DNA from: a virus
Lineage: Duplodnaviria; Caudoviricetes
DNA: 64,000 nucleotides
IMG/VR virus record: IMGVR_UViG_3300042445_001485
Direction: 5' to 3' (one strand)
This document shows, one piece after another, positions 25,071 through 49,728 of this stretch. Each line of letters opens with the position of its first letter. The first letter of the stretch is position 1. The position numbers and the translations under genes were made by a program. The notes under the pieces are model-generated. The model had not been told where the DNA came from. It made no database searches and saw only the letters and a program-made list of their open reading frames with translations.

Positions 25071-25922
25071 TCAGGTGCCCCATTCGTTCTTGAAGAGTGG
25101 CACTTGTAGTCTATCACTGTACCGCCATCCTTTTCGCATTGCCATTTCTGCCACTGCACGATTGTTAAGGGTATACACCCGCTCAACACCACCGACAGGC
25201 ATGACATACACAGGACCCATAAACCCTGCTGTACGATATTCTTCAACTGCTCGTTCTGCATCTATTAGATCCTGTTCTGTTGCCACCACCAGTTTCAAGT
25301 AAGTATAACCAACTTCTTCGTATGCACATACCACTTCGGGAACGATTGCTTCTTCCCACCGCTCGCCACTGCAAGGAAGTTTGGCACTTACACTGAATGT
25401 CAATGCATTGCGTCCACGCTCTTTATTGCCCAAACTCCAGTTCAACAGATACTGTCTAAACTTTGGATCAAAGGGTTGAGTGCCGTTTGTTTCGAATGTG
25501 ATCTCTTTAAGTCCCTGCATTGTGGGATGATCTAGCAAGTCTGGATAAGCTCGTTGCCAACCTAGTAAGGGTTCACCTCCGGTGATTACGAGATGTTCGT
25601 CGCGCCATTCCTCGTACGGTAACGTATCCATAATACCAAGGGCAATTGAATCGCTAGAAAGAACGGGAGATAGATGGCGAAAGCGAGGATCCCAACTAGC
25701 GTAACTGTCACAACCTGTACTAACAAGAGGAAGGGATTTGTAGTCGGTATAGTTAGCAGGGTCAATATTGGTAGCTTCATTGCTGAGTTCTCCTTGGGGC
25801 ATGCCGAATCCGGCACATTTAAAGTTACATCCAAACACACGCAAGAACACACTGGGTACACCCATGTAGCGTCCTTCGCCTTGTATTGAATAAAATAGTT
25901 CTGCGATTTTAAGTTTTGACAT
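25071..25922 (-). CDS. queE: 7-carboxy-7-deazaguanine synthase QueE (radical SAM)
   Basis: ELFYSIQGEGRYMGVPSVFLRVFGCNFKC...GCDS, VITGGEPLL, FETNGT, VSAKL and RLQVPL. Confidence 0.9.
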   Translation of the reverse strand: MSKLKIAELFYSIQGEGRYMGVPSVFLRVFGCNFKCAGFGMPQGELSNEATNIDPANYTDYKSLPLVSTGCDSYASWDPRFRHLSPVLSSDSIALGIMDTLPYEEWRDEHLVITGGEPLLGWQRAYPDLLDHPTMQGLKEITFETNGTQPFDPKFRQYLLNWSLGNKERGRNALTFSVSAKLPCSGERWEEAIVPEVVCAYEEVGYTYLKLVVATEQDLIDAERAVEEYRTAGFMGPVYVMPVGGVERVYTLNNRAVAEMAMRKGWRYSDRLQVPLFKNEWGT

Positions 25923-27392: not shown

Positions 27393-28009
27393 CGCACCCC
27401 GGATGCCAACACTATCTTACAGATGTGTTCTAATCGTTCAATGTGTTCAAAAGCTCTCCACGGGCTTGTGTCAATGGCAACAACTCCGTGGCCTTTAATG
27501 CCTACAATATCGTAGGCAATATTACCACGATCATCCAATTCTAATCTATAGTGACACTGGTCAGCAAGTTCTTGACTAATTGGTTTCACATCTCCCACAT
27601 TGGGTGCTACTTTGGTATAGCGACTGAGTTCAGGAAATGCATCAACAATGGTTCCAAGATCAATGCCGGCATGCATGGCCGCAACACAATAAGTAGGATG
27701 CAAATGTACGACCACACGAACATCCGTGCTGTGCTGTCCCATCTTCTTTTGTAGTCCGAAATGCAATGGAATCTCACCGCTGGGCTTTAGATTAGCACTG
27801 ATGTCGGTATAATAGTCCTCTTGCCAAAGTAATCCATGTATGCCGATCTTTTTAAATTGATCAGGTTGCATAGTCTGCTTACGCACACCACTGGGTGTGA
27901 TATAAAAGTGATCACGGTCGTGATGGCGAATACTCACATTGCCATCACGACTGGTAATCCAGTTTCTATTATATGCTTCGACTAAGGTCTCACAAATAGT
28001 TTCTAACAT
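27389..28009 (-). CDS. Class II aldolase/adducin family protein
   Basis: SRDGNVS, ITPSG, KPSGEIPLH, VVHLHP and GHGVV. Confidence 0.85.
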   Translation of the reverse strand: MLETICETLVEAYNRNWITSRDGNVSIRHHDRDHFYITPSGVRKQTMQPDQFKKIGIHGLLWQEDYYTDISANLKPSGEIPLHFGLQKKMGQHSTDVRVVVHLHPTYCVAAMHAGIDLGTIVDAFPELSRYTKVAPNVGDVKPISQELADQCHYRLELDDRGNIAYDIVGIKGHGVVAIDTSPWRAFEHIERLEHICKIVLASGVR

Positions 28010-28515
28010 TATGCAAACAAGTCCTCATTCCATTCACGATGTCCTTCACGGAACGCCATGTTGGCCTGTGTTTCGCGAACTTCTACACGATAGCACCAAA
28101 GTCTTGCGGCCTCACCCGGACCCCACATTTCGGGAATGTAAACACCATTAACATACTTGTACAGCATGTCACTGAGTCCTTCACAACCCAGTCGGGGCAA
28201 TACCACAACCTTGGCCATGTTCCGCTCCTGTAGCAACTTAAATGTTGCCATTTCAGGATCATCTTGTGCCACAATAAGTGTGTGGTCAAATTGATCTTCT
28301 AATGTTTTCTTTAGTTCTTTGAGTCCGCCATAATCGGCGGCCCAGTTACGCACATCCAGTTCGTTAGTTCCAAAATAGAACTTCATTGAGAATGAATATC
28401 CGTGTATCAAATTACAATGGCTATCGCTCCTCCACTGTCTATACGCACATGGAAATGCGTCGTGATACTCTTTGGTACTGGTATATTTGTATACCACGGG
28501 ATTTAATGTTGTCAT
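28009..28515 (-). CDS. queD: 6-carboxy-5,6,7,8-tetrahydropterin synthase QueD
   Basis: SHCNLIHGYS (CxxxHG), DYGGLK, FDHTLIV and VEVRET. Confidence 0.88.
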   Translation of the reverse strand: MTTLNPVVYKYTSTKEYHDAFPCAYRQWRSDSHCNLIHGYSFSMKFYFGTNELDVRNWAADYGGLKELKKTLEDQFDHTLIVAQDDPEMATFKLLQERNMAKVVVLPRLGCEGLSDMLYKYVNGVYIPEMWGPGEAARLWCYRVEVRETQANMAFREGHREWNEDLFA

Positions 28516-28599: not shown

Positions 28600-29112
28600 T
28601 TATCTCCACCATTCTTCCCAGGGAAAAACACACCAAATGTCCTTCTCTAGTTTGTTGATGGAGGTACCTACATAGTCAGCATCTTTGAACGTACTGGCTT
28701 GGTTATTGACCATCACCGCAAAGCGAACATTGCTGTGCCAAATGTCTTGCCAAGCAGGATCACTGGGCATACACGAAGCAGGCCAATCATTTTTGATCCA
28801 TTCAAGTGTGGCACCCGAATCGTTGATGTCATCTACAACTAATATATTTTTACGATGAAACACACGGCCGCCACCATAGGCATCTTCTGCCATACCGCAG
28901 TTACTGGTTGGTCCAACTGTGCTGTCACGCAGGCTGACATCAAGTGTTTGCATGGGCACATTCATGTAATGACTCAACATGGTAGCAGGAATCAATCCAC
29001 CTCGACCAATGCCCACAATGTAGTCGGGTCGCCAGTTGTGTGCGGTCATGTCTCTGATGATGTTGTGTAACCAATACCGAACATCTTCGGGGGTGTAATA
29101 TGCTTTATGCAA
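28600..29112 (-). CDS. Purine phosphoribosyltransferase (Gpt/HPRT-like type I PRTase)
   Basis: IGRGGLIPA, PRPP loop ILVVDDINDSGATL and VFPWE. Confidence 0.85.
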   Translation of the reverse strand: MHKAYYTPEDVRYWLHNIIRDMTAHNWRPDYIVGIGRGGLIPATMLSHYMNVPMQTLDVSLRDSTVGPTSNCGMAEDAYGGGRVFHRKNILVVDDINDSGATLEWIKNDWPASCMPSDPAWQDIWHSNVRFAVMVNNQASTFKDADYVGTSINKLEKDIWCVFPWEEWWR

Positions 29113-30752: not shown

Positions 30753-31487
30753 TTAGCGGGGGGCAAAGTCTTGTTGTAGTTTGATGTTGTCAAAGAATTC
30801 CTTCTTTGTACTTTGGTCTGTTTGGAAAGCGCCATGTAATACTGTGGTTTGGGTCAAACTACTATGAGCCATAATACCCCTGTTCTCACAGCAACCATGT
30901 GTGGCTTGTATGTATACACCAACATCCGACGACCCGGTTGCATACTCAATTTCACGAGCAATGTCCATGCACAGTTCTTCTTGTAAGGTACCTCTACGGG
31001 CACACCATTGTGCAATCCTGGTGTACTTGGAGAGTCCAATTAGTTTTGGTCCTGCAATGATACCAATGTATGCCACCCCCGACACAGGCTGATGATGGTG
31101 ACTACACATTGATTTGAGCTCACTGCGTACTACCAACATGCCCTCATACTTGCCATCTGTATCATTGGGAAAGGCTGTGGCATTTGGACTTGGTTCATAT
31201 CGCCCTGCCATTACTTCATTAAAGTACATTTTGGCCAGGCGTCGTGCTGTATCTTGGCTATTGGGATCTGTTTCACGATCTATTAACAATGCATCAAGTA
31301 CACCTTCGAATGCTTCTGTGGCATCGTCGATTAGTTGTTCTTTGTCAGCTTCACTGACATAGTCACTGATGTTGTCGCCAGCCCAAAATCTTTTGCCGTC
31401 ACGCTTCATTCGAAAACGAATAGCGTCGCCTAGGTAACCTTCTTCATAGCCCTTGTCGTCTATGGTATCAATCCAATTTTCGTTCAA
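30753..31487 (-). CDS. folE: GTP cyclohydrolase I FolE
   Basis: DTARRLAKMY, SMCSHHHQP, GLSKYTRI, LQEEL and ATHGCCENRG. Confidence 0.95.
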   Translation of the reverse strand: MNENWIDTIDDKGYEEGYLGDAIRFRMKRDGKRFWAGDNISDYVSEADKEQLIDDATEAFEGVLDALLIDRETDPNSQDTARRLAKMYFNEVMAGRYEPSPNATAFPNDTDGKYEGMLVVRSELKSMCSHHHQPVSGVAYIGIIAGPKLIGLSKYTRIAQWCARRGTLQEELCMDIAREIEYATGSSDVGVYIQATHGCCENRGIMAHSSLTQTTVLHGAFQTDQSTKKEFFDNIKLQQDFAPR

Positions 31488-31528: not shown

Positions 31529-31557
31529 ATTGTAATATCTTTAACTTGTAAAGTCAA
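31529..31557 (-). promoter_or_regulatory. Sigma70-type promoter for folE
   Basis: TTGACT-N17-TACAAT. Confidence 0.7.
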
Positions 31558-34426: not shown

Positions 34427-35394
34427 TTAGTGTACCATTTGTGTGCTGAGTCGATAATAGTTTCGATGTTGCTGTATTTGGGAACCCATCCTAATAGGTT
34501 CTTTGCCTGTGTGGCGTCTGCTACTAGTATATCTGGATCGCCAGGGCGTCTTGTTCCGTAATTGACAAATGGTAGTCCGTATTTGTTAAACACATAATCA
34601 ACAATTTGTTTATTACTTATACCCTCCCGAGTGCCAAGATTTAAAACATAAGCACCTGGTTGCGGATAGTCATCTAACAGGTAGTTGACACCCAATATGT
34701 GCGCTTGTGCCAAATCCCATACGTGTACATAGTCTCGAACACAAGTACCATCATCTGTGTCGTAATCGTCACCGTTGATGGTAAACGCACGATCAGCAAT
34801 GCTGGCTTCTAATGCACGAGCAACAATATGTGTAGCGCCCGGTTCTTGACCTAGATCCGAGTTAAAGGGCTCGGCACCTGCCGCATTGAAGTACCTAAAA
34901 CACATGCTATGAATATCGTATGCTCGGAAGTAATCATCCAGTATGCGTTCAGTCATGGCCTTGGTGGCACCATAGGGACTGATAGGTTGTATGTCACTGC
35001 CTTCATCGGTGGGCCAAGTGTCGGGCACACCATAAACACTGGCACTGCTACTAAACAAGATCACAGGCCGTTTGGACATGTGTCTAACAACATTCAACAA
35101 GGCAATGGTCTTAACTATGTTGTTGGTGTAGTATTCAGCGGGGTCAGTCATGCTGGGTCCAACCAAGCTGGTACCAGCACAATGCACAACAACATCAGGT
35201 TCTAAATTAACAATCAGTGACAATGCCTCGTCACTGGCAAAATCGGCAATCAGATATCCATCAATGTCTTTGAGAGTATGATCTCGTTTGATTTGATCAA
35301 TGATGTTTACAGTATCATTGTTTTGTTTAAATGCTCGCGCAACATGGCTACCTATGTAGCCACATCCACCTGTTACAACAACAGTTCTGTTCAT
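34423..35394 (-). CDS. galE: UDP-glucose 4-epimerase GalE
   Basis: TGGCGYIGSH, YGATK, RYFNAAGA and DGTCVRDYVHVWDLAQAH. Confidence 0.9.
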   Translation of the reverse strand: MNRTVVVTGGCGYIGSHVARAFKQNNDTVNIIDQIKRDHTLKDIDGYLIADFASDEALSLIVNLEPDVVVHCAGTSLVGPSMTDPAEYYTNNIVKTIALLNVVRHMSKRPVILFSSSASVYGVPDTWPTDEGSDIQPISPYGATKAMTERILDDYFRAYDIHSMCFRYFNAAGAEPFNSDLGQEPGATHIVARALEASIADRAFTINGDDYDTDDGTCVRDYVHVWDLAQAHILGVNYLLDDYPQPGAYVLNLGTREGISNKQIVDYVFNKYGLPFVNYGTRRPGDPDILVADATQAKNLLGWVPKYSNIETIIDSAHKWYTK

Positions 35395-35605: not shown

Positions 35606-36112
35606 TCAACTATTCAATACTTTTGCCACTGAATTCATCACACTGGCAATACGGCCGATGTCACGAAGTTGTTCTACTGTGTAGCCTTCTTGCTTCAATG
35701 TTTCATAATGTGCTTTCACACAGAAGTGACACTTGCCCACAATACTTGCTGCCAAACTAAATGCTTCAAAGTTTGACTTGGTAGTTCCACCGTGGCTGGC
35801 AATGGCATTCATGCGTAACTGTGCTGGTAATCCTTTCAATGCTGGATCATCTGCCATCTCAACATAGGGATACCATACATTGTTCTGGGCCATAATACTT
35901 GCGGCGGTCATTGCTGACTCTGCGTGTACCGGAGCATCTGCTAAAATTACACTTAGTATTTTACCGTTACCAGTTGCGGCAAGTGCGGCCACGGCGCAAC
36001 CCATGGCAACATCTGCATCCAATGTGCTACGCAAAAGAACAGCATCAAGATTCAACTTGGTGTCTTTTGCGTAGTCTGGCAACGCCGATTTAACTGCATC
36101 AATGAATGCCAT
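35606..36112 (-). CDS. ahpD: Alkyl hydroperoxide reductase AhpD
   Basis: LPDYAKDTKLNL, MAQNNVWY and GKCHFCVKAH (CxxC). Confidence 0.9.
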   Translation of the reverse strand: MAFIDAVKSALPDYAKDTKLNLDAVLLRSTLDADVAMGCAVAALAATGNGKILSVILADAPVHAESAMTAASIMAQNNVWYPYVEMADDPALKGLPAQLRMNAIASHGGTTKSNFEAFSLAASIVGKCHFCVKAHYETLKQEGYTVEQLRDIGRIASVMNSVAKVLNS

Positions 36113-36669
36113 TATAAAGTCTCACCACCAACGGTGCGGTTACATGCACATAGTTCGCCAGTTTGAAGAGCATCTAAAATACGTAGAGTTTCTTCTGGAT
36201 TACGACCAACATTCAAGTTGTTAACTGTTACATGTTGAATAACATTGTCTGGGTCAACAATAAATGTTGCACGAAGTGCGGCACCTGCTGGAGTATAAAA
36301 TACACCCAACTGTTCAATCAAACTTAGATTTTCATTTGTTTCTGGGTTCCAACGCTGTGTGTCAGCAAATTGGTTGTGTGTGATTTTGATTAGATCACTG
36401 TGACTCTTTTGCCATGCCACCTTGCAGAACTCGTTGTCTGTGCTACCTGTGAGCAATACAGCGTCACGATCCGCAAAGTCACCTGTTAACTTGTCATAGG
36501 CCACAATTTCTGTGGGGCATACAAATGTAAAGTCTTTTGGATAGTAAACGATGATTTTCCACTTGCCTTCAAATGACTCATCTGTGATGTCAAAGAACGC
36601 ATCTTCTGGTTGTCCTGGCTTGACGCCCGTGACTACGAATTTTTCTAACTTATTGCCAACTGTTTTCAT
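36112..36669 (-). CDS. ahpC: Peroxiredoxin AhpC
   Basis: YPKDFTFVCPTE, RATFIVDP, VGRNPEETLRILDALQ and resolving Cys. Confidence 0.93.
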   Translation of the reverse strand: MKTVGNKLEKFVVTGVKPGQPEDAFFDITDESFEGKWKIIVYYPKDFTFVCPTEIVAYDKLTGDFADRDAVLLTGSTDNEFCKVAWQKSHSDLIKITHNQFADTQRWNPETNENLSLIEQLGVFYTPAGAALRATFIVDPDNVIQHVTVNNLNVGRNPEETLRILDALQTGELCACNRTVGGETL

Positions 36670-36695: not shown

Positions 36696-37922
36696 TTAAT
36701 TTTCTTCTAAACTTTGCTCTGTTGCAGTAGCAACGATACGCTCCAATGCCAGAGTAGGATCCCACTCTCGACAATACTTCTTGCGATTAGCACGACCCTT
36801 GGCAGAGTCTGGATCATATTCAATCCAAGTAAACTCGGTACCGTCACAGTCGGGACAATGGTCGTTATAGTCTGCATCGGTATGCCGGTCTTCCCCCATT
36901 CCTACCCAACCACATTTCTTATTATCACACGAAATATCTACAGGTTCTGGTGGTTGGTTGACCCATGAACCGGTGTCCCAGTTGTATCCTGACCAGGTAA
37001 CAATCTCTCCTGTGATAGGATTGAACTTGCCGTATTCCCATTCACCAAACTGTGTGCCATCCCAGTATGCTGTGCCATATGTTGTACCATAGTGTCGCCA
37101 TGTACAACTGTAATAGCCTGGGAGAGTGGGTTGGACTTTTGTAAATTTAAATGTCTCAGACCGTTCCCAAGTGCTGGGACTTGATCCATGTGGAGGATGT
37201 CCCCAGTTTTTTTCTTCGGGTGTATAGGTTTCCCACGAATTACTATCCTTTACAAGATACATTCCAAAGTCGCTACTCTTGCCATCTGTGCTACCACCCC
37301 AGTTATCAATGTCTTCATCGTCGTAAGTAACACCATTGACCAGTTCTTCTCCATCAATTTCATCGTAGCACAAGGTTAATTTGGTAATGTCAAACGGTTG
37401 TGTAAGTTCGATGTGGCCTTCGAAGAATGTGCCTTTTTCGTTACTGCTACCGACAAACACCACAGTACCCACAGGTTTACTACCAATCCATGCTTCGTCA
37501 CCACATGACCATTCAGGGCTGTCGTCACTGCCGCCATCGCAATCGTCTAGACTTTTCTGAAAAACGGTGTCACCTTTTTCATCTTCGATCTGTAGTGTAC
37601 CAGCATTACGGCTAACACCATTGACATGTGCCATGTCATCACATTCATACCACGAACCCGGAGGAAATGGCAGCCGGTCAACATCAAGGTTCATGTCATC
37701 TTGTACAGTTTCCTCATCGCTCCAGGCAATCTCAGACAAGTCAACTTGATGCTCCATGCAGTAGTCCCATACTGATCGGTCCACTGTGCCCATGACTTTT
37801 TCGCCACCGTAGCCCCACATGCTGACTTTGTAGGTTCTTGGTGTGAACTTGAGAGTCGCCATTAACTGCTCATACTCGGCGTTGACTGCTTCCGCTTGTT
37901 GGGTTTTATTCTTCTTTGCCAT
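36696..37922 (-). CDS. Acidic, Trp/Gly-rich hypothetical protein with Cys motifs
   Basis: 408 aa ORF; CDNKKCGW...HCPDC near the C-terminus. Confidence 0.75.
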   Translation of the reverse strand: MAKKNKTQQAEAVNAEYEQLMATLKFTPRTYKVSMWGYGGEKVMGTVDRSVWDYCMEHQVDLSEIAWSDEETVQDDMNLDVDRLPFPPGSWYECDDMAHVNGVSRNAGTLQIEDEKGDTVFQKSLDDCDGGSDDSPEWSCGDEAWIGSKPVGTVVFVGSSNEKGTFFEGHIELTQPFDITKLTLCYDEIDGEELVNGVTYDDEDIDNWGGSTDGKSSDFGMYLVKDSNSWETYTPEEKNWGHPPHGSSPSTWERSETFKFTKVQPTLPGYYSCTWRHYGTTYGTAYWDGTQFGEWEYGKFNPITGEIVTWSGYNWDTGSWVNQPPEPVDISCDNKKCGWVGMGEDRHTDADYNDHCPDCDGTEFTWIEYDPDSAKGRANRKKYCREWDPTLALERIVATATEQSLEEN

Positions 37923-37931
37923 TGTGATTCC

Positions 37932-39128
37932 TTAATACTTTGACTCATGTGTGTATCGGCGATAGTCTGTGCTCATACGCTGCCAAGACTCGCCCCGGCC
38001 TTCCATAATATCGCAGACGCGATCAATAGTGCCATCAGTCCAGTTGCTAATACTACCCATGTTGGCATGCGGCTTGACCAATAATGGCATCAACTTACGG
38101 ATGGCATCGTCTATGCTCCAAGGGACATAAAGTCGGTCAGGATCATTAGCAAAGGTTTCTGGGAAACTACGATAAGCAGGGTAAAGCACATTGCAACCCA
38201 GAGTATCAGCCTCAGATACAGTGTTTGAAACCCAATCTTGTAAAGCACAATTAAATAACACCCTAGTATCGTTAAGTAAAGCATAGTAGTCATTTTTATC
38301 CAAGTCCTCATATAGCGTCAACAGTCCGCGAGCCTGTAGATCTCTTGTACGAGCCATATAACTGTTATTGTTGCTCTTTAGTCGGGCACCCGAGAAGATA
38401 GCAAACTCCACACGATTCGTGGGATCTAGTCCCATTGCATCATGTCTACGATTCCATTCTTCAATCAAGTCCATGTAGAAGTCTGGTTGCTTTTCTTGAT
38501 CCCAGCGGGCCGCAAAGCCCACTCGCATTTTACGGTGATCAAATGATTTCAATTCGCCTGGTACTCTTGCACGGACTTCATCTTTACCGAAAGCTAGTCC
38601 GGAGATGTTGTATATAGGGGCTTCCCAGCCGGCAATTTTCATGTGCATGACCATTTCTTCATTACTGGCCAACACACCAGTTACAAAGCTATCAACCATC
38701 TTTTCATACAAGCCCATCCACTTGCCCATACCCCATACATGAACAAAATCATCAGGATCAATGCTCTGTGCAAGACAACGAACATAAATCCTAGGTCTAA
38801 GATGTTCTGGCACTTGATTAATAATGTACGGTAATGATTCAATGCCTGGCTGAAACATGTCTTCAAAGTACACAACATCTTCATTGGTGACTACCCCTTC
38901 TTTCATCCACTTGATTAGATTCATAAGTTGACTCATACCAAAGTATGTGCGTCCATGTGCGTCCAGAACTTGTCCTGTTACAATGGCTTGATCATTACTT
39001 AATGTATCACCGGGCACCAACACATAGTCGATGCCACGGCGTTCAAAGACTGCTTCATTCCAGTCTTGTAACTGTAGTGTATATCTTGCTTTGTAGGGCT
39101 CTAGGCCCATGTAGAATAACTTACGCAT
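37932..39128 (-). CDS. GT-B fold (family 4-like) glycosyltransferase
   Basis: FAARWDQEKQPD and LFNCALQDWVSNTVSEADTLGCNVLYP (GT4 E-x7-E-like region). Start MRKLFY overlaps the upstream stop (TAATG). Confidence 0.7.
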   Translation of the reverse strand: MRKLFYMGLEPYKARYTLQLQDWNEAVFERRGIDYVLVPGDTLSNDQAIVTGQVLDAHGRTYFGMSQLMNLIKWMKEGVVTNEDVVYFEDMFQPGIESLPYIINQVPEHLRPRIYVRCLAQSIDPDDFVHVWGMGKWMGLYEKMVDSFVTGVLASNEEMVMHMKIAGWEAPIYNISGLAFGKDEVRARVPGELKSFDHRKMRVGFAARWDQEKQPDFYMDLIEEWNRRHDAMGLDPTNRVEFAIFSGARLKSNNNSYMARTRDLQARGLLTLYEDLDKNDYYALLNDTRVLFNCALQDWVSNTVSEADTLGCNVLYPAYRSFPETFANDPDRLYVPWSIDDAIRKLMPLLVKPHANMGSISNWTDGTIDRVCDIMEGRGESWQRMSTDYRRYTHESKY

Positions 39129-39394
39129 TAACGATACTTCCAATTGGTATTGGTATTGCGAGGCTTCCACTCCTTTCGTGGTTCTTTGGGATATGGACTC
39201 CAATTGTCCTTGGGAATCTTGCCTGCTTTGACTCGTTGCCATTCTCCCCATGGAGTCTTCTCGTTACCTAGATGACCTTCATCGTACACATAGCCCTGTT
39301 TCTTACAGAACTCTAAGTACTCATCGAGCTCATTGAAGAGAAAGTCAACTTCGGGTTTCATACGAAGATATTTTTTAAGCCAATCTTGTGACAT
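39128..39394 (-). CDS. Hypothetical protein
   Basis: 88 aa ORF with GGA SD. Confidence 0.7.
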   Translation of the reverse strand: MSQDWLKKYLRMKPEVDFLFNELDEYLEFCKKQGYVYDEGHLGNEKTPWGEWQRVKAGKIPKDNWSPYPKEPRKEWKPRNTNTNWKYR

Positions 39395-39403
39395 TATATT
39401 TCC

Positions 39404-39847
39404 TTAAATTACAATTGAAAGGTTTGGACGGGTAAGGTTGTAGTGTATGACGCATCCGTTTTCACCGTCCTCGGATACTTCAATTGTGACATCACGACTG
39501 GGGTAACGCCCTGCAATTTGTATGTACAAGTCATCAGCAATCATCTCACATGACTTGTGATCTAATGCTAGTATAGCATCTTTATATAAATTTTCCAACC
39601 AGCGTTTGAATTGAATAAACTCAATATCGCGATCATTATGGAACACATCTATGCCTACTCTAAAGTGGAATATATGTCTATGTGGGTTGGCTAAAAACGA
39701 TACATCATATTCATCGCCGGTGGCCAGCATGGGATCGGTTGCGGCAGCAGGATAAAAATGAATGCCTTCCTTTTGAAATGTCACAAATATTGTGCGTTGT
39801 GCGGCCGCTTTGATTCGTTCTACAGTTTCTCTTGCTTCTTGATTCAT
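39404..39847 (-). CDS. T-fold QueD paralog, DpdL-like (putative 7-carboxy-7-deazaguanine decarboxylase)
   Basis: LANPHRHIF (LxxxHRHxF), DRDIEFIQFK, SCEMIA and EVSEDGEN. Confidence 0.6.
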   Translation of the reverse strand: MNQEARETVERIKAAAQRTIFVTFQKEGIHFYPAAATDPMLATGDEYDVSFLANPHRHIFHFRVGIDVFHNDRDIEFIQFKRWLENLYKDAILALDHKSCEMIADDLYIQIAGRYPSRDVTIEVSEDGENGCVIHYNLTRPNLSIVI

Positions 39848-40371
39848 AGTACTTGATCTTTGGTATATTTAGACCAATCAGTAAAAACTTTTCGATCTAA
39901 TAGGTTGTGAAGTTGGTGGCACCAAACTCCGGGGTTGGTTGATTTGAAGTCTCGATCGTCCAGCTTGATTGTAGCATTATATCCCAACTGAAATATATAG
40001 GGCAATTTGACCGAAATCATGGGAATAAAGTTATGGTATTCAACAAAACCTGCTTCAAGCAAGCCTTCCGTACAAGTGACATCAATGTCTAGTGTGCAAA
40101 GGTGTTCCTTCTCCAGGAAGTGATAAATCATCATTTCCCATTTGGCCCATTCAGCACCGTCATTGACTGCTAGGTTAGGGAAACTTTGGTTGGCACCAAA
40201 ATAGATATGTTCCACAGGTTGACTGCCTGAGTCCAGTGCTTGTGCAATATCCGCAACACTTTGTACACCAACAACAAACATTGTGTATTTGCCGTAAGCA
40301 GGTGTATGCTCTACCTCTGTGCCATAGAAAAAGTTAACACCCTTGTGTCCCTCTCTAATCATTTGATTCAT
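39844..40371 (-). CDS. Hypothetical protein in the deazaguanine cluster
   Basis: VEHIYFGANQSF and TNPGVW; start may be MIREG at 40362. Confidence 0.7.
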   Translation of the reverse strand: MNQMIREGHKGVNFFYGTEVEHTPAYGKYTMFVVGVQSVADIAQALDSGSQPVEHIYFGANQSFPNLAVNDGAEWAKWEMMIYHFLEKEHLCTLDIDVTCTEGLLEAGFVEYHNFIPMISVKLPYIFQLGYNATIKLDDRDFKSTNPGVWCHQLHNLLDRKVFTDWSKYTKDQVL

Positions 40372-40540
40372 CCTGAAGTTGTTGCTTTAGTTTAGCAATT
40401 TCGTCTTTGAAATGCAACCTCTTTTTCTTCAATTCAGCAATCTGTTTGTCCGAAAAGTTTCCTGTGCGTTCCATTTGATCAACTTGCTTGTCCAGTGCAT
40501 GGTGCATTTCTTCTAGGTGTGCAATTCGGTTTTTAATCAT
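40355..40540 (-). CDS. DUF465/YdcH-like small coiled-coil protein
   Basis: HHALDKQV...LKKKRLHFKDEI. Confidence 0.7.
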   Translation of the reverse strand: MIKNRIAHLEEMHHALDKQVDQMERTGNFSDKQIAELKKKRLHFKDEIAKLKQQLQDESND

Positions 40541-42144
40541 TGTGATCCTTCCAAGTTGTCTAGTGCTGTTGGGTCAAATTCAATTTCATCATCGTCGGCT
40601 TCTGGTTCGTCCACTGAGAATAATGAGTTAAACATGGTGTTGGAGTTTTTGGCTTTTTTGCCTTTGAATCCACGGGTACCAACAATCTCCATCCAATATG
40701 TATCATACATCTCAATGATGTCTAGAGAATCTTGACGAGTGGGAGCCGCAAAGATTGCATCCACAATGTCTTCAAATTTGGCATAGTCTCCGCCCTGGCG
40801 TTGCATCATACCGGGACGCTCGCCTGCATCAAAGCGTCGATTAGCTTCTTGTACCGCGGTAATGTGCATCCAAACATTGTGTCCCATTAGCAATGCATAC
40901 GAGAAACTATCCCACGATGTCTTGCCCCATTTGCCGTTCTTATTGACATCTGGTAGCACATCATACAGGGCTGGATCTTGGAAATTTTCTTCCGTGAGCA
41001 CAACACCTGCTTTGACCACACCTGGATTGTAGATACAGATGTCTTTCATTTTGAACATGTTGCTTAATGGACTGTCTTCCCAGCGAGGATAGATGCCATC
41101 TGCTACCACGCCGTCACTCCACTTGCGTGTGTCTACTGCATACTTCTTATCATCTGCGCTAGGAGCCATACGATAACTCCATTTGCTTTGATCTTCAAAT
41201 ACATTTTCAAAATATACCTGTCCGTTGGCTGTTGCAAGGAACGGACTGGCACAGTCGAATGAGATAGTAAATTGTGGATTAATGTACTTGCGTACTGCTC
41301 GTTGAATTACTGTGAGTAACACAGCCCACTCTAGTTTACTTGTGCCTAAGAAGTGCATCCAATCGTGTACACCTTCTTGTAATAAATTATCATACCGGAG
41401 TGCAATCAGTCGCCTGAGAATCAAATGCACATCACACATGTTCTGTCCACCCATGCCCCAACCATCAAAGTGGCGTCCTGGATACCGCACAGGATCGCAG
41501 TATTCTTTCATAAGTTCGTACCATGCATCTGCATTGGTATGATTGTCACCTTGTAGCACATTTAAAAATCGAGCACCACCTGCATCTTTACCTTTACGGT
41601 GTTTGATAAAGTATTCATTGTTGAACTTGGTGGCTTCCACGGCTTGATCCAATGTTTTAATTTGACAAGCATCACTGGCTTTTTTATCATGTATAACCCA
41701 GGTGGGAATATCTAATCCCATGCCATAGTTACTGATGCTATCCAGCCAAGTTAAAACAGCTTCCCGTTTCTTCTGTGCCTTCAAGCATCCTGAACCAGCC
41801 TTCCAGTCGCCTTCCCATAATCCTTTGGCAATCTGGAATCCACCAGAGTCACCTAGCATCAGTGTGTTGGGATCACGACCTCGAACCATGTCCTCACTAG
41901 CGTCGGGCTTTGTGAGATCTAGGTTAGCATGGCCGCCGGAGTAAAGCGACCATTTATATGGGAACAGACCCTGTTGACTATTAAGCCAATTCATCTGTTC
42001 CATATCCGTTATGCCCTGCGGAAAGCGGGCAGGGTCTACATAATCATTGTTGACTCGTTGTTTGCCTACAAATGTGGCGTAGAAGCCACTAATAGCAGGC
42101 AAGAATACAGCATAGTCTTTTTGTTTACTGGTTAAATCATCCAC
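40537..42144 (-). CDS. TGT-family guanine transglycosylase, DpdA-like
   Basis: TGT catalytic motifs in order: DSGGFQ, LDIP, VLQG, GWGMGG, HFLG and FDCASP. No CxCxxC zinc site. Confidence 0.8.
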   Translation of the reverse strand: MDDLTSKQKDYAVFLPAISGFYATFVGKQRVNNDYVDPARFPQGITDMEQMNWLNSQQGLFPYKWSLYSGGHANLDLTKPDASEDMVRGRDPNTLMLGDSGGFQIAKGLWEGDWKAGSGCLKAQKKREAVLTWLDSISNYGMGLDIPTWVIHDKKASDACQIKTLDQAVEATKFNNEYFIKHRKGKDAGGARFLNVLQGDNHTNADAWYELMKEYCDPVRYPGRHFDGWGMGGQNMCDVHLILRRLIALRYDNLLQEGVHDWMHFLGTSKLEWAVLLTVIQRAVRKYINPQFTISFDCASPFLATANGQVYFENVFEDQSKWSYRMAPSADDKKYAVDTRKWSDGVVADGIYPRWEDSPLSNMFKMKDICIYNPGVVKAGVVLTEENFQDPALYDVLPDVNKNGKWGKTSWDSFSYALLMGHNVWMHITAVQEANRRFDAGERPGMMQRQGGDYAKFEDIVDAIFAAPTRQDSLDIIEMYDTYWMEIVGTRGFKGKKAKNSNTMFNSLFSVDEPEADDDEIEFDPTALDNLEGSQ

Positions 42145-42781
42145 GCCAAAATTTCACTTTACTTATTAATTTGTAGTCTGGAGCATAATGCTGTTTGATT
42201 TTTTCAAGATAAACAGGATTGTCTACTAGGTGTTTAAATATAGTTTTAAATATACTTCTACGAGTATCACCATCGAGACGATCTTCTGTGGTATGTTGAA
42301 AGTCATAATTTGCATATCTAGCGGCTCCGGGAATACCTTGGTTACGCAAGAACTGACTAAAGTGTAGTCGATAATCTTTATCACACCAAAAGAAAGTTGT
42401 TTTACTGGGATCTAACCCCTCAATAAAGTATACTTGTTTTTCTGTATGATCGTCAAATGTAATTTGTTCTATCAGCAGATCGTAAAATGCTTGAGTAAAC
42501 TGACTAGTATCTATGTCACGGTGATATATTGTGAAGTATTCACATATACCACTAAGCCAACGCTCCACAGGATTTCGTAACACAACCATTACATGTTTGT
42601 GATGGAACTGATCCTGGTGATAATTATAAAATTCCCAGTGTTGATCCAGTAAATTATTTTTAGTCCACGAACTGGCATTCTTAGGTATGTTAACATACAT
42701 AAGGTCGAGATTAGGCTTGCTCATGCAAGTACCGAATACATGACCTCTTGGTTCCCAGTATTGGTGGAAAGAAAATGGCAT
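42137..42781 (-). CDS. Sulfotransferase family protein
   Basis: 5'-PSB YVNIPKNASSWTK, 3'-PB VVLRNPVERWLSG and C-terminal YAPDY. Confidence 0.75.
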   Translation of the reverse strand: MPFSFHQYWEPRGHVFGTCMSKPNLDLMYVNIPKNASSWTKNNLLDQHWEFYNYHQDQFHHKHVMVVLRNPVERWLSGICEYFTIYHRDIDTSQFTQAFYDLLIEQITFDDHTEKQVYFIEGLDPSKTTFFWCDKDYRLHFSQFLRNQGIPGAARYANYDFQHTTEDRLDGDTRRSIFKTIFKHLVDNPVYLEKIKQHYAPDYKLISKVKFWRG

Positions 42782-43512
42782 TACTTGGTCTGTGCTGGTA
42801 ATGTATAGTTCCAAACAGCAACCCCAGAGTCCACAGTAATCTGTGCGGCACCCTCATCACTGATTCTAAATGCCTTGTCTCCGGGCAGGGCCAAGATAGC
42901 CATAACAGCCGAGACTGGCCATGACCATGCCTTGCTCAGTGTGCCTGTGACTCCGGCCTGGAACACAAAGTTACCAGCGTGACTGGCATGATCACCAAAG
43001 AAGAATTTCAAGTCGCCGTTTTCTGTTCGAGCAGTAAAAGTGGTTTCGTCACTGTTAGCACTGGCTTGAAAACGCAGGCGCTGAATGTTTTGTACAGTGG
43101 GCGCAAAGTCCACATTCCATTTAACTGGACGCATCTTTTGATTCTTTAACTTGTCGTTGATGATTTCCGCCGACATAAAACGATAATCGTTTTTAAAGTC
43201 GCCGGCTTTGTTTTCAAAGTGAATACCAACTGGAACCGACTCGCCGTTGCGATCTTGTTTGGTGATTGTGAGCTTGGCATCTTCCTTGTATTCTGGAATA
43301 CCCAATATAGTGTTCAACTTGGCCAAGTTTGGCATACCAAAAGTGCCAACAAAGTCTGGGTGTGCGCCTTTAAATACTGCGTCCACCACAACTGTTTTGT
43401 CTTCGGCCAGAGCAATAACTCGAGTTTCGGCATCTGTGCCTGTGACCTTGACCAAGTCAATAGTGCCTAGTCCGTGTGTGTGCTGTACAATGTCTTTCAA
43501 ATAGTCTTGCAT
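42781..43512 (-). CDS. Probable DNA polymerase sliding clamp (gp45-like)
   Basis: 243 aa with an alternating helix/strand pattern in two halves, near the DNA polymerase. No diagnostic motif. Confidence 0.5.
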   Translation of the reverse strand: MQDYLKDIVQHTHGLGTIDLVKVTGTDAETRVIALAEDKTVVVDAVFKGAHPDFVGTFGMPNLAKLNTILGIPEYKEDAKLTITKQDRNGESVPVGIHFENKAGDFKNDYRFMSAEIINDKLKNQKMRPVKWNVDFAPTVQNIQRLRFQASANSDETTFTARTENGDLKFFFGDHASHAGNFVFQAGVTGTLSKAWSWPVSAVMAILALPGDKAFRISDEGAAQITVDSGVAVWNYTLPAQTK

Positions 43513-43534: not shown

Positions 43535-43564
43535 ATTATAGATGATTGTATTTAGACCTGTCAA
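43535..43564 (-). promoter_or_regulatory. Sigma70-type promoter
   Basis: TTGACA-N18-TATAAT, AGGAG SD. Confidence 0.7.
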
Positions 43565-44505: not shown

Positions 44506-47169
44506 TTACTCAAATGTAAATAGACTATCAAATGTTGATTTGGTGTCAGTGCTAGATAAAATATCCCAATCCAACACACCCAATAGGTTTTCTATCTTTT
44601 GATCTACAATACCTGTTTCCATCAAGTTCTGATCAAACGGCAAATCTTTAAACCATTGTGGTATGTGTGTTTCATCTGTGGGATAACCAACGCTGGTATA
44701 ACCTAATGGATTATCTTTTAGTTTACACACAACAGTTTTCATTCCATCGATGATTTGCAACGAATAGTTATCCCCGTGCATCCTTCTCAGGTTGTTCCAG
44801 TTCATTGCGGCTCTTACATGTCCCGGCATGTTGGCTCGACCTAATCTAGCTTCTTCTGCTGTATATTTGGTTAAATTGTTTACACGCTTGGGAGTACCCT
44901 TTTCCCAGGCTGGTCTTTCTTGGAACGCATACTTGAATTCTTTAATTTTTTCAATTACTTTTTCTCTGGCATCATCGCTGGTTAGCACATCCATGAGAAT
45001 TTCACTTAGGAACTCTTGTACAATTTTAGGAGTGTCACTGCGTTTCAAATCAAGTCCCATGGCTTTTACTTTGCCCGGTTTACCATTCACATCCAAGCGA
45101 TTGTTTTCCATATCGTAGATCAATACAGCATAACGCTTCTTCTTGATAAACAGGCCTTTGCGAGCCACAAGCTCGCGACCACCCATGATGATTGCACCCA
45201 TTTCTCGGGGGCAATGGCAGGCCCGTTCCATAAACCCCGGAAACGATTCGTTCACACCATCAGCGATGGTGTCGTACAGTTGTACAGCAATGTCTTTGTT
45301 CCATTCCATTGCACCTGCGGCTACTTCCGCTTGGACCGCTGGCCACGCTGTAAAGTATACCGAGTCTGTGTCGCCATAGATAATGCTCGAACCAACGTGG
45401 TCGTAGTTGCCTGTAATTGCTTGGTTAACTGTGGCGTCCATGTGCTTGGCAATGATCCTACCAGTAAGTGTCGTACTTTGGCCAATTCGTTGGTCAAAGA
45501 ACCTGCAATGTGGGTTGAGGATAGCCCCGTAGAGCGAATTAAGATTGATCTTTTTAACGAGTTGGCGTTTATCCCAGAATGCTTTGTCTTCAGTAGCTTC
45601 TGCGGTTTTCTTTTTTGCTTGCATTTCTTGTCTTTCTGCATACCACCTTTCTAGCAGTCCGGGAATAATACCCTTCATGTCATATCTAAATATAGTACCA
45701 TTGGCACTGAGTGTCCACGGCTGATTACCATTGAATATTAATCGCCAAACTTCAGCGGCACTATGAATTGTCTCTTCACCGCTTTCCCAATCTATGGTTA
45801 TTTCTGCGCCAAGTTCATTGGCCATCACGGATTGATATTCCAAGGTACCAAACATGTTTTCCCACGCATCAGCAAAAGATGAACCTGCTGCCATCTTTTC
45901 CTTGATGTAGTGGTCGGTCATTGTGGTCCGGAGTTGACCAACGATGGTTTCTGGGCCCATGTTAAGGGCTCTAATAGCCGAGGGGTAGAGACTGTTGATG
46001 TCGATTGCGCCAATGTATTCATGGACGCCTTTTTTGGGATAAGCAACATAGGCACCTGCGGCTTGCGTTTCTCTTGGATCATCTTTGCTCTTTCTATTAG
46101 GAACAATCATACCACGCTGGTGAGCTTCATTAATGATAGCCTGCTCTGTTACTGCAACCGCACCCATTGTGGTTGGTAACAACACCGTGTTGTCGTGAGC
46201 AAGTTCATTGGCCAAGTCCAGGAAGCGAAGCTTCTTGTCCAGTTTGGCCAATAGCATGGTATCTTGTCTGTTATAGTCAATGAACTTGGGAAAGTCCTTG
46301 TTGTACAATTGATCCAGGGTGCCTTCGTAAGCAACCTTACTACCACATTCTTCATACTCACCAATTGCGTCTAGACTATAACTGTGTCGTTCCTCGTAGG
46401 TGTACTTGCGGTACAGTTGCATATAATCCATATGCACCCGACCAGCCAAGTCAAAAGTCAAATTTTCAGCACCAAAGCGTTCAAAGGTTCTTTGCTTGGG
46501 TAATTGTCCCCATAGACAAAAGCGTCTTGTATCATCCTTGCTGAGCACACGAGTGATACGCATCACAGTATAGGGAATATCAAAACCTTCCGAGTTCCAT
46601 CCGCTAAGGATATCGGCATCTTCGATCAAGTCAAGGAATGTGTTTAACATATCCTCTTCTCTTTCAAACAAATAGCAATTGTCGTATCTGTTGCAAATCT
46701 CTTCGGCGGTTTCCCACGAATAGCTTTTTGGTGGAACTACAAGTGTTACTAACTTGTCCATCCAATCCAAGTATATAGATATTGCTGTCACAGGATTAAA
46801 TGGGTCTTCGGGCTTTGAAAAGCCACGCTGGGGATCAAAGTCTACCTCAATGTCAAAAAATGCAGTCTGTAACTTGGGACTGTTTACACCCGAGTAGTTT
46901 CCTTCAAGGCAACGAAATATGGGATTGATATCACTTTCCCACAGTCTCTTACCTGAATTAATTTTCAACTCTTTTTGGAATTCTTTGCTGTTACGACTAC
47001 TAAACCTGCTGACAGGGGTATCGTAAATTGTACGGAATTTGCCACGCGGATCATCATAGTAAAAAATATAATCAGCCGGGTACTCACGATATACTCGTTC
47101 TCCGTTGACTCGCTCAACTATGTGTATCCGATCTTTTGCTCTATCAAATAGAGCATCTACATAACTCAT
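44506..47169 (-). CDS. Family B DNA polymerase (gp43-like)
   Basis: Exo I FFDIEV, Exo II GWNSEGFDIPY, YNRQD, DINSLYPS, KINLNSLYG, YGDTDS and KKRY. Confidence 0.97.
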   Translation of the reverse strand: MSYVDALFDRAKDRIHIVERVNGERVYREYPADYIFYYDDPRGKFRTIYDTPVSRFSSRNSKEFQKELKINSGKRLWESDINPIFRCLEGNYSGVNSPKLQTAFFDIEVDFDPQRGFSKPEDPFNPVTAISIYLDWMDKLVTLVVPPKSYSWETAEEICNRYDNCYLFEREEDMLNTFLDLIEDADILSGWNSEGFDIPYTVMRITRVLSKDDTRRFCLWGQLPKQRTFERFGAENLTFDLAGRVHMDYMQLYRKYTYEERHSYSLDAIGEYEECGSKVAYEGTLDQLYNKDFPKFIDYNRQDTMLLAKLDKKLRFLDLANELAHDNTVLLPTTMGAVAVTEQAIINEAHQRGMIVPNRKSKDDPRETQAAGAYVAYPKKGVHEYIGAIDINSLYPSAIRALNMGPETIVGQLRTTMTDHYIKEKMAAGSSFADAWENMFGTLEYQSVMANELGAEITIDWESGEETIHSAAEVWRLIFNGNQPWTLSANGTIFRYDMKGIIPGLLERWYAERQEMQAKKKTAEATEDKAFWDKRQLVKKINLNSLYGAILNPHCRFFDQRIGQSTTLTGRIIAKHMDATVNQAITGNYDHVGSSIIYGDTDSVYFTAWPAVQAEVAAGAMEWNKDIAVQLYDTIADGVNESFPGFMERACHCPREMGAIIMGGRELVARKGLFIKKKRYAVLIYDMENNRLDVNGKPGKVKAMGLDLKRSDTPKIVQEFLSEILMDVLTSDDAREKVIEKIKEFKYAFQERPAWEKGTPKRVNNLTKYTAEEARLGRANMPGHVRAAMNWNNLRRMHGDNYSLQIIDGMKTVVCKLKDNPLGYTSVGYPTDETHIPQWFKDLPFDQNLMETGIVDQKIENLLGVLDWDILSSTDTKSTFDSLFTFE

Positions 47170-49644: not shown

Positions 49645-49728
49645 AATGCTTGATGGGGCACGACTCCCACATTTGGAACCCAGCAGCCGGGTCACCCACG
49701 CAACCTAAGTCGCGGTCCTAAGGGTGTT
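49645..49728 (-). ncRNA. Candidate structured RNA element
   Basis: Hairpin CGCGAC/GUUGCG, then stem GGGU-GAC/GUC-GU-GCCC enclosing CCCGG/CUGGG and UUCC/GGGA hairpins; GC-rich in an AT-rich context. Confidence 0.4.

What the first reader, a model, noticed from the sequence alone, without database searches (positions are those of the whole stretch)
37932..42144. 7-deazaguanine DNA modification cluster with an adjacent glycosyltransferase: candidate new hypermodified base
Seen: one operon runs TGT-like, DUF465, unknown, LxxxHRHxF T-fold protein, unknown, GT-B glycosyltransferase; folE, queD and queE lie 7-13 kb away and no queC is in the window. Established: FolE, QueD and QueE make CDG; DpdA transglycosylases insert deazaguanines into phage DNA; DpdL has been proposed as the CDG decarboxylase giving dDG, a route needing no QueC. 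Inference: the DNA carries dDG or dCDG. The coupled GT and two unknown genes may add a further, possibly glycosyl, modification that I do not know to be described.
Basis: partly seen in the sequence, partly recalled or inferred. Interest (0 to 1): 0.75.

Follow-up and report, generated by a model that had tools for sequence, protein, structure and literature searches.

The report
Sugar transferase inside phage deazaguanine operon
A giant lake-water phage carries the gene set for swapping guanine in its DNA for a 7-deazaguanine base; a sugar-adding enzyme is built into that set, as in seven unrelated phage groups, so these DNAs may carry a sugar-bearing purine that no paper I could search describes.

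Summary
On the minus strand, genes that overlap by 1-34 nt or lie 9 nt apart run: clamp-like protein, sulfotransferase-like protein, a 535-aa TGT-fold DpdA-like transglycosylase, DUF465, an orphan 175-aa protein, DpdL (LANPHRHIF), an 88-aa protein, then a GT4-type glycosyltransferase (probably 398 aa, starting at 39128). A perfect sigma-70 promoter precedes the block. FolE, QueD, a phosphoribosyltransferase and QueE lie 6-13 kb away. QueC is absent from the window, from five near-complete relatives and from five cultured carriers.

The glycosyltransferase link is real. Among 50,697 phage records, the full-length family occurs in 18 records (7 lineages: PA5oct-like, ACP17, X1/BUDD, BCSR5, Phosso, BUCT-ZZ01, plus this clade). 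In the seven records I inspected, one per lineage plus BUDD, it lies within about 4 kb of DpdL, although gene order is shuffled. DpdL also occurs without it, as in phiST, where plain dDG was measured.

The DpdA-like tail carries the same F-x-x-L-F peptide that ends the phage's own DNA polymerase, which suggests clamp-tethered base exchange.

What the glycosyltransferase modifies is not shown. I put a sugar-bearing 7-deazaguanine at about 0.4.

This scan has already reported both the glycosyltransferase link and the clamp tail on other DNA. I class it as a new variant of a known kind.

The parts
43535..43564 (-). Sigma-70 consensus promoter (TTGACA-18-TATAAT, 12/12) ahead of the operon
   Evidence: pattern match only, function inferred
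42781..43512 (-). 243-aa clamp-like protein (phrog_12062). Its homologues are annotated PCNA in PAC2 and sliding clamp in Phosso
   Evidence: No PDB sequence hit and the fold was not tested
42137..42814 (-). 225-aa sulfotransferase-like protein (PF03567, 22 bits, exactly at the cut-off)
   Evidence: Present upstream of dpdA in a subset of relatives
40537..42144 (-). 535-aa TGT-fold DpdA-like transglycosylase with a disordered C-terminal tail that carries TMFNSLF
40355..40540 (-). 61-aa DUF465 coiled-coil protein
   Evidence: Found in only a few relatives
39844..40371 (-). 175-aa orphan alpha/beta protein with 20 invariant residues; a homologue precedes dpdA in ACP17
39404..39847 (-). 147-aa DpdL (QueD paralogue, LANPHRHIF), the proposed CDG decarboxylase
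   Evidence: PMC10516641
39128..39394 (-). 88-aa basic protein of unknown function, conserved between DpdL and the GT in freshwater relatives only
37932..39128 (-). 398-aa GT4-type (GT-B) glycosyltransferase with the family motifs EPxxxRYT, RxxxEKQP and D/E-x7-E
30753..31487 (-). FolE (GTP cyclohydrolase I)
   Evidence: E 1e-38
28600..29112 (-). 170-aa purine-type phosphoribosyltransferase, also present inside the clusters of BUCT-ZZ01, PA5oct and many relatives
28009..28515 (-). QueD-like PTPS-family protein (CNLIHGY in place of CxxxHGH)
25071..25922 (-). QueE-like radical-SAM CDG synthase (QGEG, TGGEP, ETNG and SxK motifs; an insertion between the cluster cysteines)
44506..47169 (-). Family B DNA polymerase ending in TFDSLFTFE, the reference for the clamp-type tail

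Best explanation
This is a QueC-independent, replication-linked 7-deazaguanine DNA-modification module with a built-in GT4 glycosyltransferase. FolE, QueD and QueE make the free base CDG. DpdL (proposed by Cui et al., not proven) decarboxylates it to 7-deazaguanine. The 535-aa TGT-fold enzyme exchanges guanine in phage DNA for that base. It probably does so while docked on the phage sliding clamp, through the same F-x-x-L-F peptide that ends the DNA polymerase. The phosphoribosyltransferase most simply salvages the released guanine. The glycosyltransferase then uses a host nucleotide sugar to add a sugar to the deazaguanine, on DNA or on the free base before insertion, giving a sugar-bearing purine. 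Shown: the folds and families, the motifs, the absence of QueC and the co-occurrence. Inferred: every chemical step, clamp binding and the GT's acceptor.
For: TGT fold with invariant DSGG and D297. DpdL motif and homology to the phiST DpdL. FolE, QueD and QueE are present and QueC is absent in the window, five near-complete relatives and five cultured carriers. The GT is a real GT4-type family with conserved nucleotide-sugar motifs. All 18 phage records with the full-length GT are among the 29 DpdL-positive records. In the seven records inspected, the GT lies within about 4 kb of DpdL. Gene order differs: DpdA-GT-DpdL in PA5oct, GT-DpdA-DpdL in X1, DpdL-GT in Phosso, DpdL-p88-GT here. Of 80 IMG/VR DpdL loci, 66 hold the GT within 10 kb, and six of the 14 misses are loci cut within about 1.1 kb after DpdL. 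Tail motif: 31 of 72 family members, against 2.1 in control windows and 5.0 in shuffled tails; 72 of 84 distinct polymerase/DpdA tail pairs share F-x-x-L-F. Literature: PA5oct DNA resists G-containing restriction sites (PMC12191111); ACP17 dpdA plus dpdL gave no dDG in E. coli, and the authors suggested that other enzymes may be needed (PMC10516641); a GT glycosylates a 7-deazapurine base in huimycin biosynthesis (bioRxiv 10.64898/2026.04.15.718813).
Against: 7-deazaguanine has no hydroxyl or carboxyl handle, so the acceptor atom (N2, O6, C7 or C8, or the CDG carboxyl) is a guess. No carrier phage has published nucleoside mass spectrometry. DpdL phages without the GT exist (phiST, RHph_I1_18, Bakedbeans, Ahp1, D479, MA9V-3), and phiST has plain dDG, so the GT is not needed for base replacement. 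None of 68 GT homologues carries the clamp-type tail. The window GT itself has no Pfam hit and its fold was not modelled. The IMG/VR loci are phylogenetically related, so the 66 of 80 count is not independent evidence. The clamp identity of the 243-aa protein rests on two depositors' annotations only.
Confidence: 0.45

Rival explanations
1. The DNA carries plain dDG (or dCDG), as in phiST. The glycosyltransferase belongs to the module but does not decorate the final DNA base. It could glycosylate a pathway intermediate or the free base, as a transient carrier or solubilising group removed at insertion, or it could act as a non-catalytic partner of DpdA or DpdL.
For: dDG lacks a glycosylation handle. 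phiST reaches full G replacement without a GT (PMC10516641). The GT has no clamp-type tail, unlike DpdA. Free-base glycosylation of a 7-deazapurine has a precedent in HuiG (bioRxiv 10.64898/2026.04.15.718813). A phosphoribosyltransferase in the cluster shows that free bases are handled.
Against: The conserved nucleotide-sugar motifs argue for catalysis. No hydrolase that would remove a sugar recurs in the clusters. END nucleases, described as sensors of hypermodified DNA, target PA5oct (PMC12191111), though dDG alone might suffice for that.
Confidence: 0.3
2. The glycosyltransferase modifies something unrelated to deazaguanine, such as another DNA base, a phage or host protein, or a host surface glycan. 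It sits next to DpdL only because both are early replication-region genes.
For: The window holds a separate sugar-nucleotide cluster (31541-35394) typical of surface-glycan auxiliary genes. More distant GT4 relatives in PhiXhv-15 and Ep032 sit beside GlmS-like and BshB-like genes, with no DpdL hit in those records.
Against: All 18 full-length family records are DpdL-positive, and linkage survives rearrangement in 7 lineages from different virus families. The sugar-nucleotide cluster is not conserved next to the GT in ACP17, PA5oct or X1.
Confidence: 0.12
3. The TGT-like enzyme acts on tRNA (queuosine or archaeosine-type modification) rather than on DNA.
For: The fold's closest solved relatives are tRNA-guanine transglycosylases.
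Against: It lies in an operon with the clamp-like gene, next to the polymerase, and carries the polymerase-type tail. It has no Pfam TGT match. The homologue-bearing PA5oct has restriction-resistant G in its DNA (PMC12191111). The route lacks QueC, so preQ0 and preQ1, the tRNA substrates, are not made.
Confidence: 0.03

Closest known systems
DpdL-type dDG system of Cellulophaga phage phiST (FolE, QueD, QueE, DpdL, DpdA3; Cui, Hutinet et al., NAR 2023, PMC10516641)
   Same: It uses FolE, QueD and QueE without QueC. It has a DpdL with the LxxxHRHxF signature (33.6% identity to the phiST protein). A TGT-superfamily enzyme is the presumed inserter.
   Different: The transglycosylase is a different, much larger clade (535 aa against 259 aa, with no detectable sequence similarity) and has a clamp-type tail. 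A GT4 glycosyltransferase, a 175-aa orphan protein and a phosphoribosyltransferase are added. The product is unknown here; phiST has measured dDG.
Pseudomonas jumbo phage PA5oct (Wroclawvirus) locus EST35_0314-0322
   Same: It has the clamp-like protein, a 540-aa DpdA-like enzyme (36% identity), a GT homologue, DpdL, a phosphoribosyltransferase and QueE in one block. Its DNA has a restriction-resistant G (PMC12191111).
   Different: The gene order is DpdA-GT-DpdL. It has no 175-aa, 88-aa or DUF465 homologue. It has a short Rossmann-type (epimerase-like) protein instead. All the relevant genes are annotated as hypothetical.
T4 DNA glucosyltransferases (alpha- and beta-GT) acting on 5-hydroxymethylcytosine
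   Same: These are GT-B fold enzymes that add a sugar from a nucleotide sugar to a non-canonical base in phage DNA after replication (established knowledge).
   Different: They belong to different GT families, I found no sequence relation, the acceptor is a pyrimidine hydroxymethyl group, and they are not linked to deazaguanine genes.
HuiG of huimycin biosynthesis (GT acting on a 7-deazapurine base)
   Same: A glycosyltransferase uses a preQ0-derived 7-deazapurine free base as acceptor with UDP-GlcNAc (bioRxiv 10.64898/2026.04.15.718813).
   Different: It is an actinomycete secondary-metabolite enzyme. Its product is a small molecule, not DNA.
T4/RB69 sliding-clamp clients (gp43 polymerase, gp33, gp55) with C-terminal hydrophobic clamp-binding peptides
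   Same: A short hydrophobic peptide on a disordered C-terminal tail is shared with the phage's own family B polymerase.
   Different: The client here would be a DNA base-exchange enzyme. Binding was not tested and the clamp's identity rests on annotation.

Membership tests
TGT/DpdA superfamily | TGT-type (beta/alpha)8 barrel fold | tested here: met
   AF2 pLDDT 90.2, pTM 0.88. The 50 best Foldseek PDB hits shown are all Z. mobilis TGT entries, E 5e-7 to 6e-6, prob 1.00.
TGT/DpdA superfamily | Catalytic aspartates (the DSGG Asp and a second Asp on a later strand) | tested here: met
   D99, S100, G102 and D297 are invariant in 75 sequences. The profile aligns DSGG with TGT residues 101-106 (not significant as a search hit). 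The role of D297 is inferred from the motif only.
TGT/DpdA superfamily | Match to Pfam TGT (PF01702) or DpdA (PF23859) | tested here: not met
   0 of 75 family members match at E <= 0.01. There are only language-model leads at 0.92 and 0.88.
TGT/DpdA superfamily | Guanine-for-deazaguanine exchange in DNA | not testable with these tools
   Needs a biochemical assay or nucleoside mass spectrometry.
DpdA3 (phiST type) | Sequence similarity to CGPG_00065 | tested here: not met
   phmmer E 0.8-1.0 in both directions.
DpdL | LxxxHRHxF signature replacing the QueD motif CxxxHGH | tested here: met
   LANPHRHIF at residues 52-60. Both His of the HxH core, a third His and two Glu are invariant in 9 homologues; the central Arg is Phe in two of them.
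DpdL | Homology to the phiST and ACP17 DpdL | tested here: met
   tblastn: 57% identity to ACP17 (E 6e-40) and 33.6% to phiST (E 1e-8).
DpdL | Context: FolE, QueD and QueE present, QueC absent | tested here: met
DpdL | CDG decarboxylase activity | not testable with these tools
   Also unproven in the literature (PMC10516641).
GT4 / GT-B glycosyltransferases | Match to Glycos_transf_1 (PF00534) | tested here: inconclusive
   The window protein has no hit. 10 of 32 family members match at E <= 0.01 (best E 5.5e-7), and the BCSR5 member reaches 42 bits against a cut-off of 26.4.
GT4 / GT-B glycosyltransferases | E-x7-E-type motif and a basic phosphate-binding motif in the C-terminal domain | tested here: met
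   R208, K213 and E306 are invariant (RxxxEKQP and D/E-x7-E) in alignments A1 and A5. The reading as GT4 motifs rests on my own knowledge.
GT4 / GT-B glycosyltransferases | Two-Rossmann-domain GT-B fold | not tested
tRNA-queuosine mannosyltransferase (QTMAN) | QTMAN_N domain (PF12038) | tested here: not met
   No Pfam hit. The only sign is a language-model neighbour at ranks 52 and 66.
Sliding-clamp clients of T4-type phages | A C-terminal peptide shared with the phage polymerase, on a disordered tail | tested here: met
   TMFNSLF against the polymerase TFDSLF. Tail pLDDT is below 50. Enrichment and pairing were measured.
Sliding-clamp clients of T4-type phages | Physical binding to the clamp | not tested
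   The complex-prediction machine could not be reached.

The most novel reading that the evidence does not exclude
These phages replace guanine with a sugar-bearing 7-deazaguanine, a glycosylated purine not described in DNA. A clamp-tethered DpdA-like transglycosylase working behind the replication fork and a dedicated GT4 enzyme would make it. Both are abundant in lake and marine viromes and present in cultured phages such as PA5oct and ACP17.
Probability: 0.4. Interest if true: 0.85.

Novelty: new variant of a known kind. Interest (0 to 1): 0.72.

Why it matters
All known glycosylated DNA bases in phages are pyrimidines, such as glucosyl- or arabinosyl-hydroxymethylcytosine and the related modified thymines and uracils. 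All eight known 7-deazaguanine DNA bases lack sugars. A glycosyltransferase wired into the deazaguanine module in seven phage lineages predicts a new class of DNA base. It also offers an explanation for why dpdA plus dpdL from ACP17 failed to give dDG in E. coli.

The protein families are very abundant in metagenomes. More than 6,000 close DpdA-like proteins and nearly 8,000 close GT proteins were scored, with the candidate lists capped. So the modification, whatever it is, would be common in freshwater and marine viromes. It would affect restriction, CRISPR, sequencing chemistry and nanopore basecalling.

A clamp-docked base-exchange enzyme would also explain how post-replicative exchange can approach completeness. 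Cultured hosts exist (P. aeruginosa, Acidovorax, Xanthomonas, Burkholderia, Sinorhizobium, Synechococcus), so the question can be tested directly.

Tried and rejected
1. Direct family searches. The DpdA-like, 175-aa, 88-aa, 408-aa and GT proteins gave nothing in Pfam, NCBIfam or the PDB by sequence, and nothing in PHROGs (PDB by sequence for the DpdA-like protein only).

2. Nearest cultured relative. The 6-kb region has no megablast match in 50,697 phage records, and no genome is held for the window.

3. The 175-aa protein.
- Foldseek against the PDB gave nothing at E <= 0.001.
- AFDB clusters returned only its own unnamed family.
- VIA-align gave a best Z of 6.5 (STAS/RsbS) and three QueE structures at Z 5.1-6.1. 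All are below the tool's stated noise level of 7-8.
- hhalign against a QueE alignment gave probability 0.2%, so I dropped the QueE likeness.
- A PDB profile search gave no hits, and the ESM Atlas gave no usable hit.

4. QueC.
- The weak PF06508 matches in relatives are NAD synthase.
- The window's only PP-loop protein (47866-49047) has a faint Asn-synthase match and no phage homologue. I did not link it to the pathway.

6. Clamp-type tail on the GT.

7. Complex prediction (DpdA with the 175-aa protein, then clamp-like protein with the DpdA tail) could not be reached in six attempts. No result exists.

8. QTMAN kinship of the GT is a language-model lead only, with no PF12038 match.

9. I did not build a tree against DpdA1-4. 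The sequences are too divergent for phmmer to connect, and reference sequences for DpdA1, 2 and 4 were not fetched.

Full report
**What is there**

The window is part of an uncultured freshwater jumbo phage. Relatives in IMG/VR reach 320-354 kb and 92-100% completeness. No whole genome is held for the window.

All genes of the region lie on the minus strand. A 12/12 sigma-70 consensus promoter at 43564-43535 precedes a 243-aa gene. From that gene to the glycosyltransferase, neighbouring genes overlap by 1-34 nt or are 9 nt apart. In order, the genes are:

- a clamp-like protein (42781-43512);
- a sulfotransferase-like protein (42137-42814);
- a 535-aa DpdA-like protein (40537-42144);
- DUF465 (40355-40540);
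- a 175-aa protein (39844-40371);
- DpdL (39404-39847);
- an 88-aa protein (39128-39394);
- the glycosyltransferase (37932-39128).

The family B polymerase lies just upstream (44506-47169). FolE, a purine-type phosphoribosyltransferase, a QueD-like protein and a QueE-like protein lie 6.4-12.9 kb downstream. The one correction is that the glycosyltransferase most likely starts at 39128 (398 aa), as in its 386-403-aa relatives.

**The transglycosylase**

The 535-aa protein matches nothing in Pfam, NCBIfam or the PDB by sequence. None of 75 diverse relatives matches Pfam TGT or DpdA. The family is large: 908 clusters at 50% identity reach E <= 0.001.

An AlphaFold2 model built on 75 sequences is confident (pLDDT 90.2). 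Its 50 best Foldseek matches in the PDB are all Z. mobilis tRNA-guanine transglycosylase entries (E 5e-7 to 6e-6, prob 1.00). D99-S100-G102 (DSGGFQ), H264 and D297 are invariant across the family.

The protein is therefore a TGT-fold enzyme of a clade that no Pfam model covers. It is unrelated at sequence level to the 259-aa DpdA3 of phiST. Homologues occur in PA5oct-like Pseudomonas jumbo phages (36% identity), Sinorhizobium phage Phosso and a Vibrio jumbo phage. ACP17 has a distant one (E 4e-9). ACP17, X1 and BUCT-ZZ01 share a separate group of 416-437-aa proteins carrying DSGG next to their glycosyltransferase; BCSR5 has a 446-aa DSGG protein there that is barely related to them.

**DpdL and the missing QueC**

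The 147-aa protein carries LANPHRHIF, the LxxxHRHxF signature that Cui et al. use to define DpdL (PMC10516641). It is homologous to the DpdL of ACP17 (57% identity) and phiST (33.6%).

QueC is absent from the window. It is also absent, above the Pfam cut-off, from five near-complete relatives and from ACP17, BUCT-ZZ01, X1, BCSR5 and Phosso. The weak QueC-like matches in the relatives are NAD synthase. The pathway therefore stops at CDG and branches through DpdL, as in phiST.

**The glycosyltransferase and its linkage**

The window protein itself has no Pfam hit. However, 10 of 32 family members match Glycos_transf_1 at E <= 0.01, and the BCSR5 member scores 42 bits against a cut-off of 26.4. 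Language-model neighbours are GT4 clusters. The family keeps an RxxxEKQP motif and a D/E-x7-E motif with the second Glu invariant. It also has a family-specific N-terminal EPxxxRYT motif.

The decisive point is distribution.

- In 50,697 phage records, the full-length family occurs in 18 records from 7 lineages: PA5oct-like (11 records), ACP17 (2), X1, BUDD, BCSR5, Phosso and BUCT-ZZ01.
- All 18 are among the 29 DpdL-positive records.
- In the seven records I inspected, one per lineage plus BUDD, the glycosyltransferase lies within about 4 kb of DpdL, in different gene orders.
- Five further records (PhiXhv-12/15/16, Ep026, Ep032) hold only a partial, more distant GT4 match. In PhiXhv-15, the one region I inspected, it sits beside GlmS-like and BshB-like genes.
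- Among 80 DpdL loci from IMG/VR, 66 hold the glycosyltransferase within 10 kb. Six of the 14 misses are cut within about 1.1 kb after DpdL. These loci are related to one another, so they add abundance rather than independence.

The converse does not hold. RHph_I1_18, Bakedbeans, Ahp1, D479 and MA9V-3 have DpdL but lack the glycosyltransferase in the whole genome, and tblastn with three family members found none in any phiST-group record. phiST is the only phage of this kind with measured DNA, which is plain dDG at full replacement (PMC10516641). So the glycosyltransferase is an optional add-on that occurs only where DpdL occurs.

**Other parts**

- The 175-aa protein has 20 invariant residues and often overlaps the dpdA stop codon in relatives. 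It has a homologue just before dpdA in ACP17. Its confident model (pLDDT 90.3) matches no known fold above noise.
- The 88-aa and DUF465 proteins are clade-specific.
- A phosphoribosyltransferase recurs inside the clusters of BUCT-ZZ01, PA5oct and many relatives. Salvage of guanine released by base exchange is the simplest reading. Conversion of the deazapurine base to a nucleotide, as in toyocamycin and tubercidin biosynthesis (my own knowledge), is an alternative.

**Clamp-type tail**

The polymerase ends in TFDSLFTFE. The DpdA-like protein carries TMFNSLF in a tail with pLDDT below 50, followed by an acidic stretch.

- Across the family, 31 of 72 members have a hydrophobic-x-x-[LM]-F peptide in the last 45 residues. 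Control windows of the same proteins average 2.1 (maximum 6) and shuffled tails average 5.0 (maximum 12).
- In relatives that hold both genes, 72 of 84 distinct polymerase/DpdA tail pairs share F-x-x-L-F.

In T4 and RB69, the polymerase's C-terminal peptide binds the sliding clamp (my own knowledge). The gene at the head of this operon is annotated PCNA or sliding clamp in two homologous records. Clamp-tethered base exchange is therefore a reasonable inference. Binding was not tested because the complex-prediction machine could not be reached. None of 68 glycosyltransferase homologues has such a tail.

**Literature**

Full-text searches found no paper that links a glycosyltransferase to 7-deazaguanine in DNA and none that links DpdA to a sliding clamp.

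- PA5oct DNA resists enzymes with G in their sites, and the authors infer a modified G (PMC12191111).
- Cui et al. report that ACP17 dpdA plus dpdL gave no dDG in E. coli, and that other enzymes may be required.
- HuiG glycosylates a 7-deazapurine base in huimycin biosynthesis. This shows the chemistry is possible on the free base.

**Verdict**

- A QueC-independent 7-deazaguanine DNA modification is very likely (about 0.85).
- The glycosyltransferase probably belongs to this pathway (about 0.7).
- That the final DNA base carries a sugar is open (about 0.4), because dDG offers no obvious acceptor and no carrier phage has been analysed by mass spectrometry.

Earlier notes of this scan reached the same reading of the glycosyltransferase link on other DNA (140 notes in at least 98 genomes) and of the clamp tail (21 notes). 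I reached both here from this window's own data before reading those notes.

Noticed in passing
window 42137-42814 (-): A 225-aa protein between the clamp-like gene and dpdA matches the carbohydrate sulfotransferase family PF03567 exactly at its cut-off (22 bits). It recurs upstream of dpdA in a subset of relatives. A sulfotransferase in one operon with a glycosyltransferase could mean a sulfated sugar.
   Followed up: partly
window 47866-49047 (-): A 393-aa protein with a PP-loop motif (SGGIDS) and a faint Asn-synthase match. It has no homologue in 50,697 phage records. It could be an ATP-dependent carboxylate-activating enzyme, but nothing links it to CDG.
   Followed up: partly
window 31541-35394 (-): A sugar-nucleotide gene cluster: a DegT-type aminotransferase fragment, two NAD-dependent epimerase/dehydratases (one like GDP-mannose 4,6-dehydratase), a PfkB-type kinase, a cytidylyltransferase-like protein and a cupin. 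It is a possible donor-sugar supply for the glycosyltransferase, or a surface-glycan auxiliary set.
   Followed up: no
window 28009-28515 (-): The QueD-like protein has CNLIHGY where QueD has CxxxHGH, so the second zinc-binding histidine is replaced by tyrosine.
   Followed up: no
window 36696-37922 (-): A 408-aa acidic, Trp-rich protein with a C-terminal CxxC...CxxC pair lies 9 nt after the glycosyltransferase. It has no family match, and homologues lie near the cluster in only a few relatives.
   Followed up: partly
window 25954-26754, 49718-50428, 50545-50976, 35606-36669 (-): Auxiliary metabolic genes: two fatty-acid desaturases, a ferritin-like protein, a peroxiredoxin (AhpC/TSA) and a carboxymuconolactone-decarboxylase-family protein.
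   Followed up: no
L091:9215-10366 (Vibrio phage Bakedbeans gp176) and L094:9494-10375 (Chryseobacterium phage MA9V-3): In these phages DpdL is the C-terminal domain of a 383-aa or 293-aa protein. The fused N-terminal domain is unidentified.
   Followed up: no
L085:7010-8353 (Synechococcus phage BUCT-ZZ01): A second GT4-like protein (447 aa; Glyco_trans_1_4, E 3e-5) lies between FolE and dpdA. This cluster therefore holds two glycosyltransferases.
   Followed up: no
L178:6747-9981 (Xanthomonas phage PhiXhv-15): A distant GT4 relative sits with a GlmS-like aminotransferase and a BshB-like deacetylase, with no DpdL hit in that record. It may be a different, GlcN-based modification or metabolite pathway in 227-229-kb phages.
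   Followed up: no
L086:9422-9940 (PA5oct EST35_0320) and L089:5843-6376 (X1): Cluster-specific extras: a 172-aa Rossmann protein (epimerase-like) in PA5oct, and a 177-aa PAPS-reductase-type PP-loop protein next to FolE in X1.
   Followed up: no
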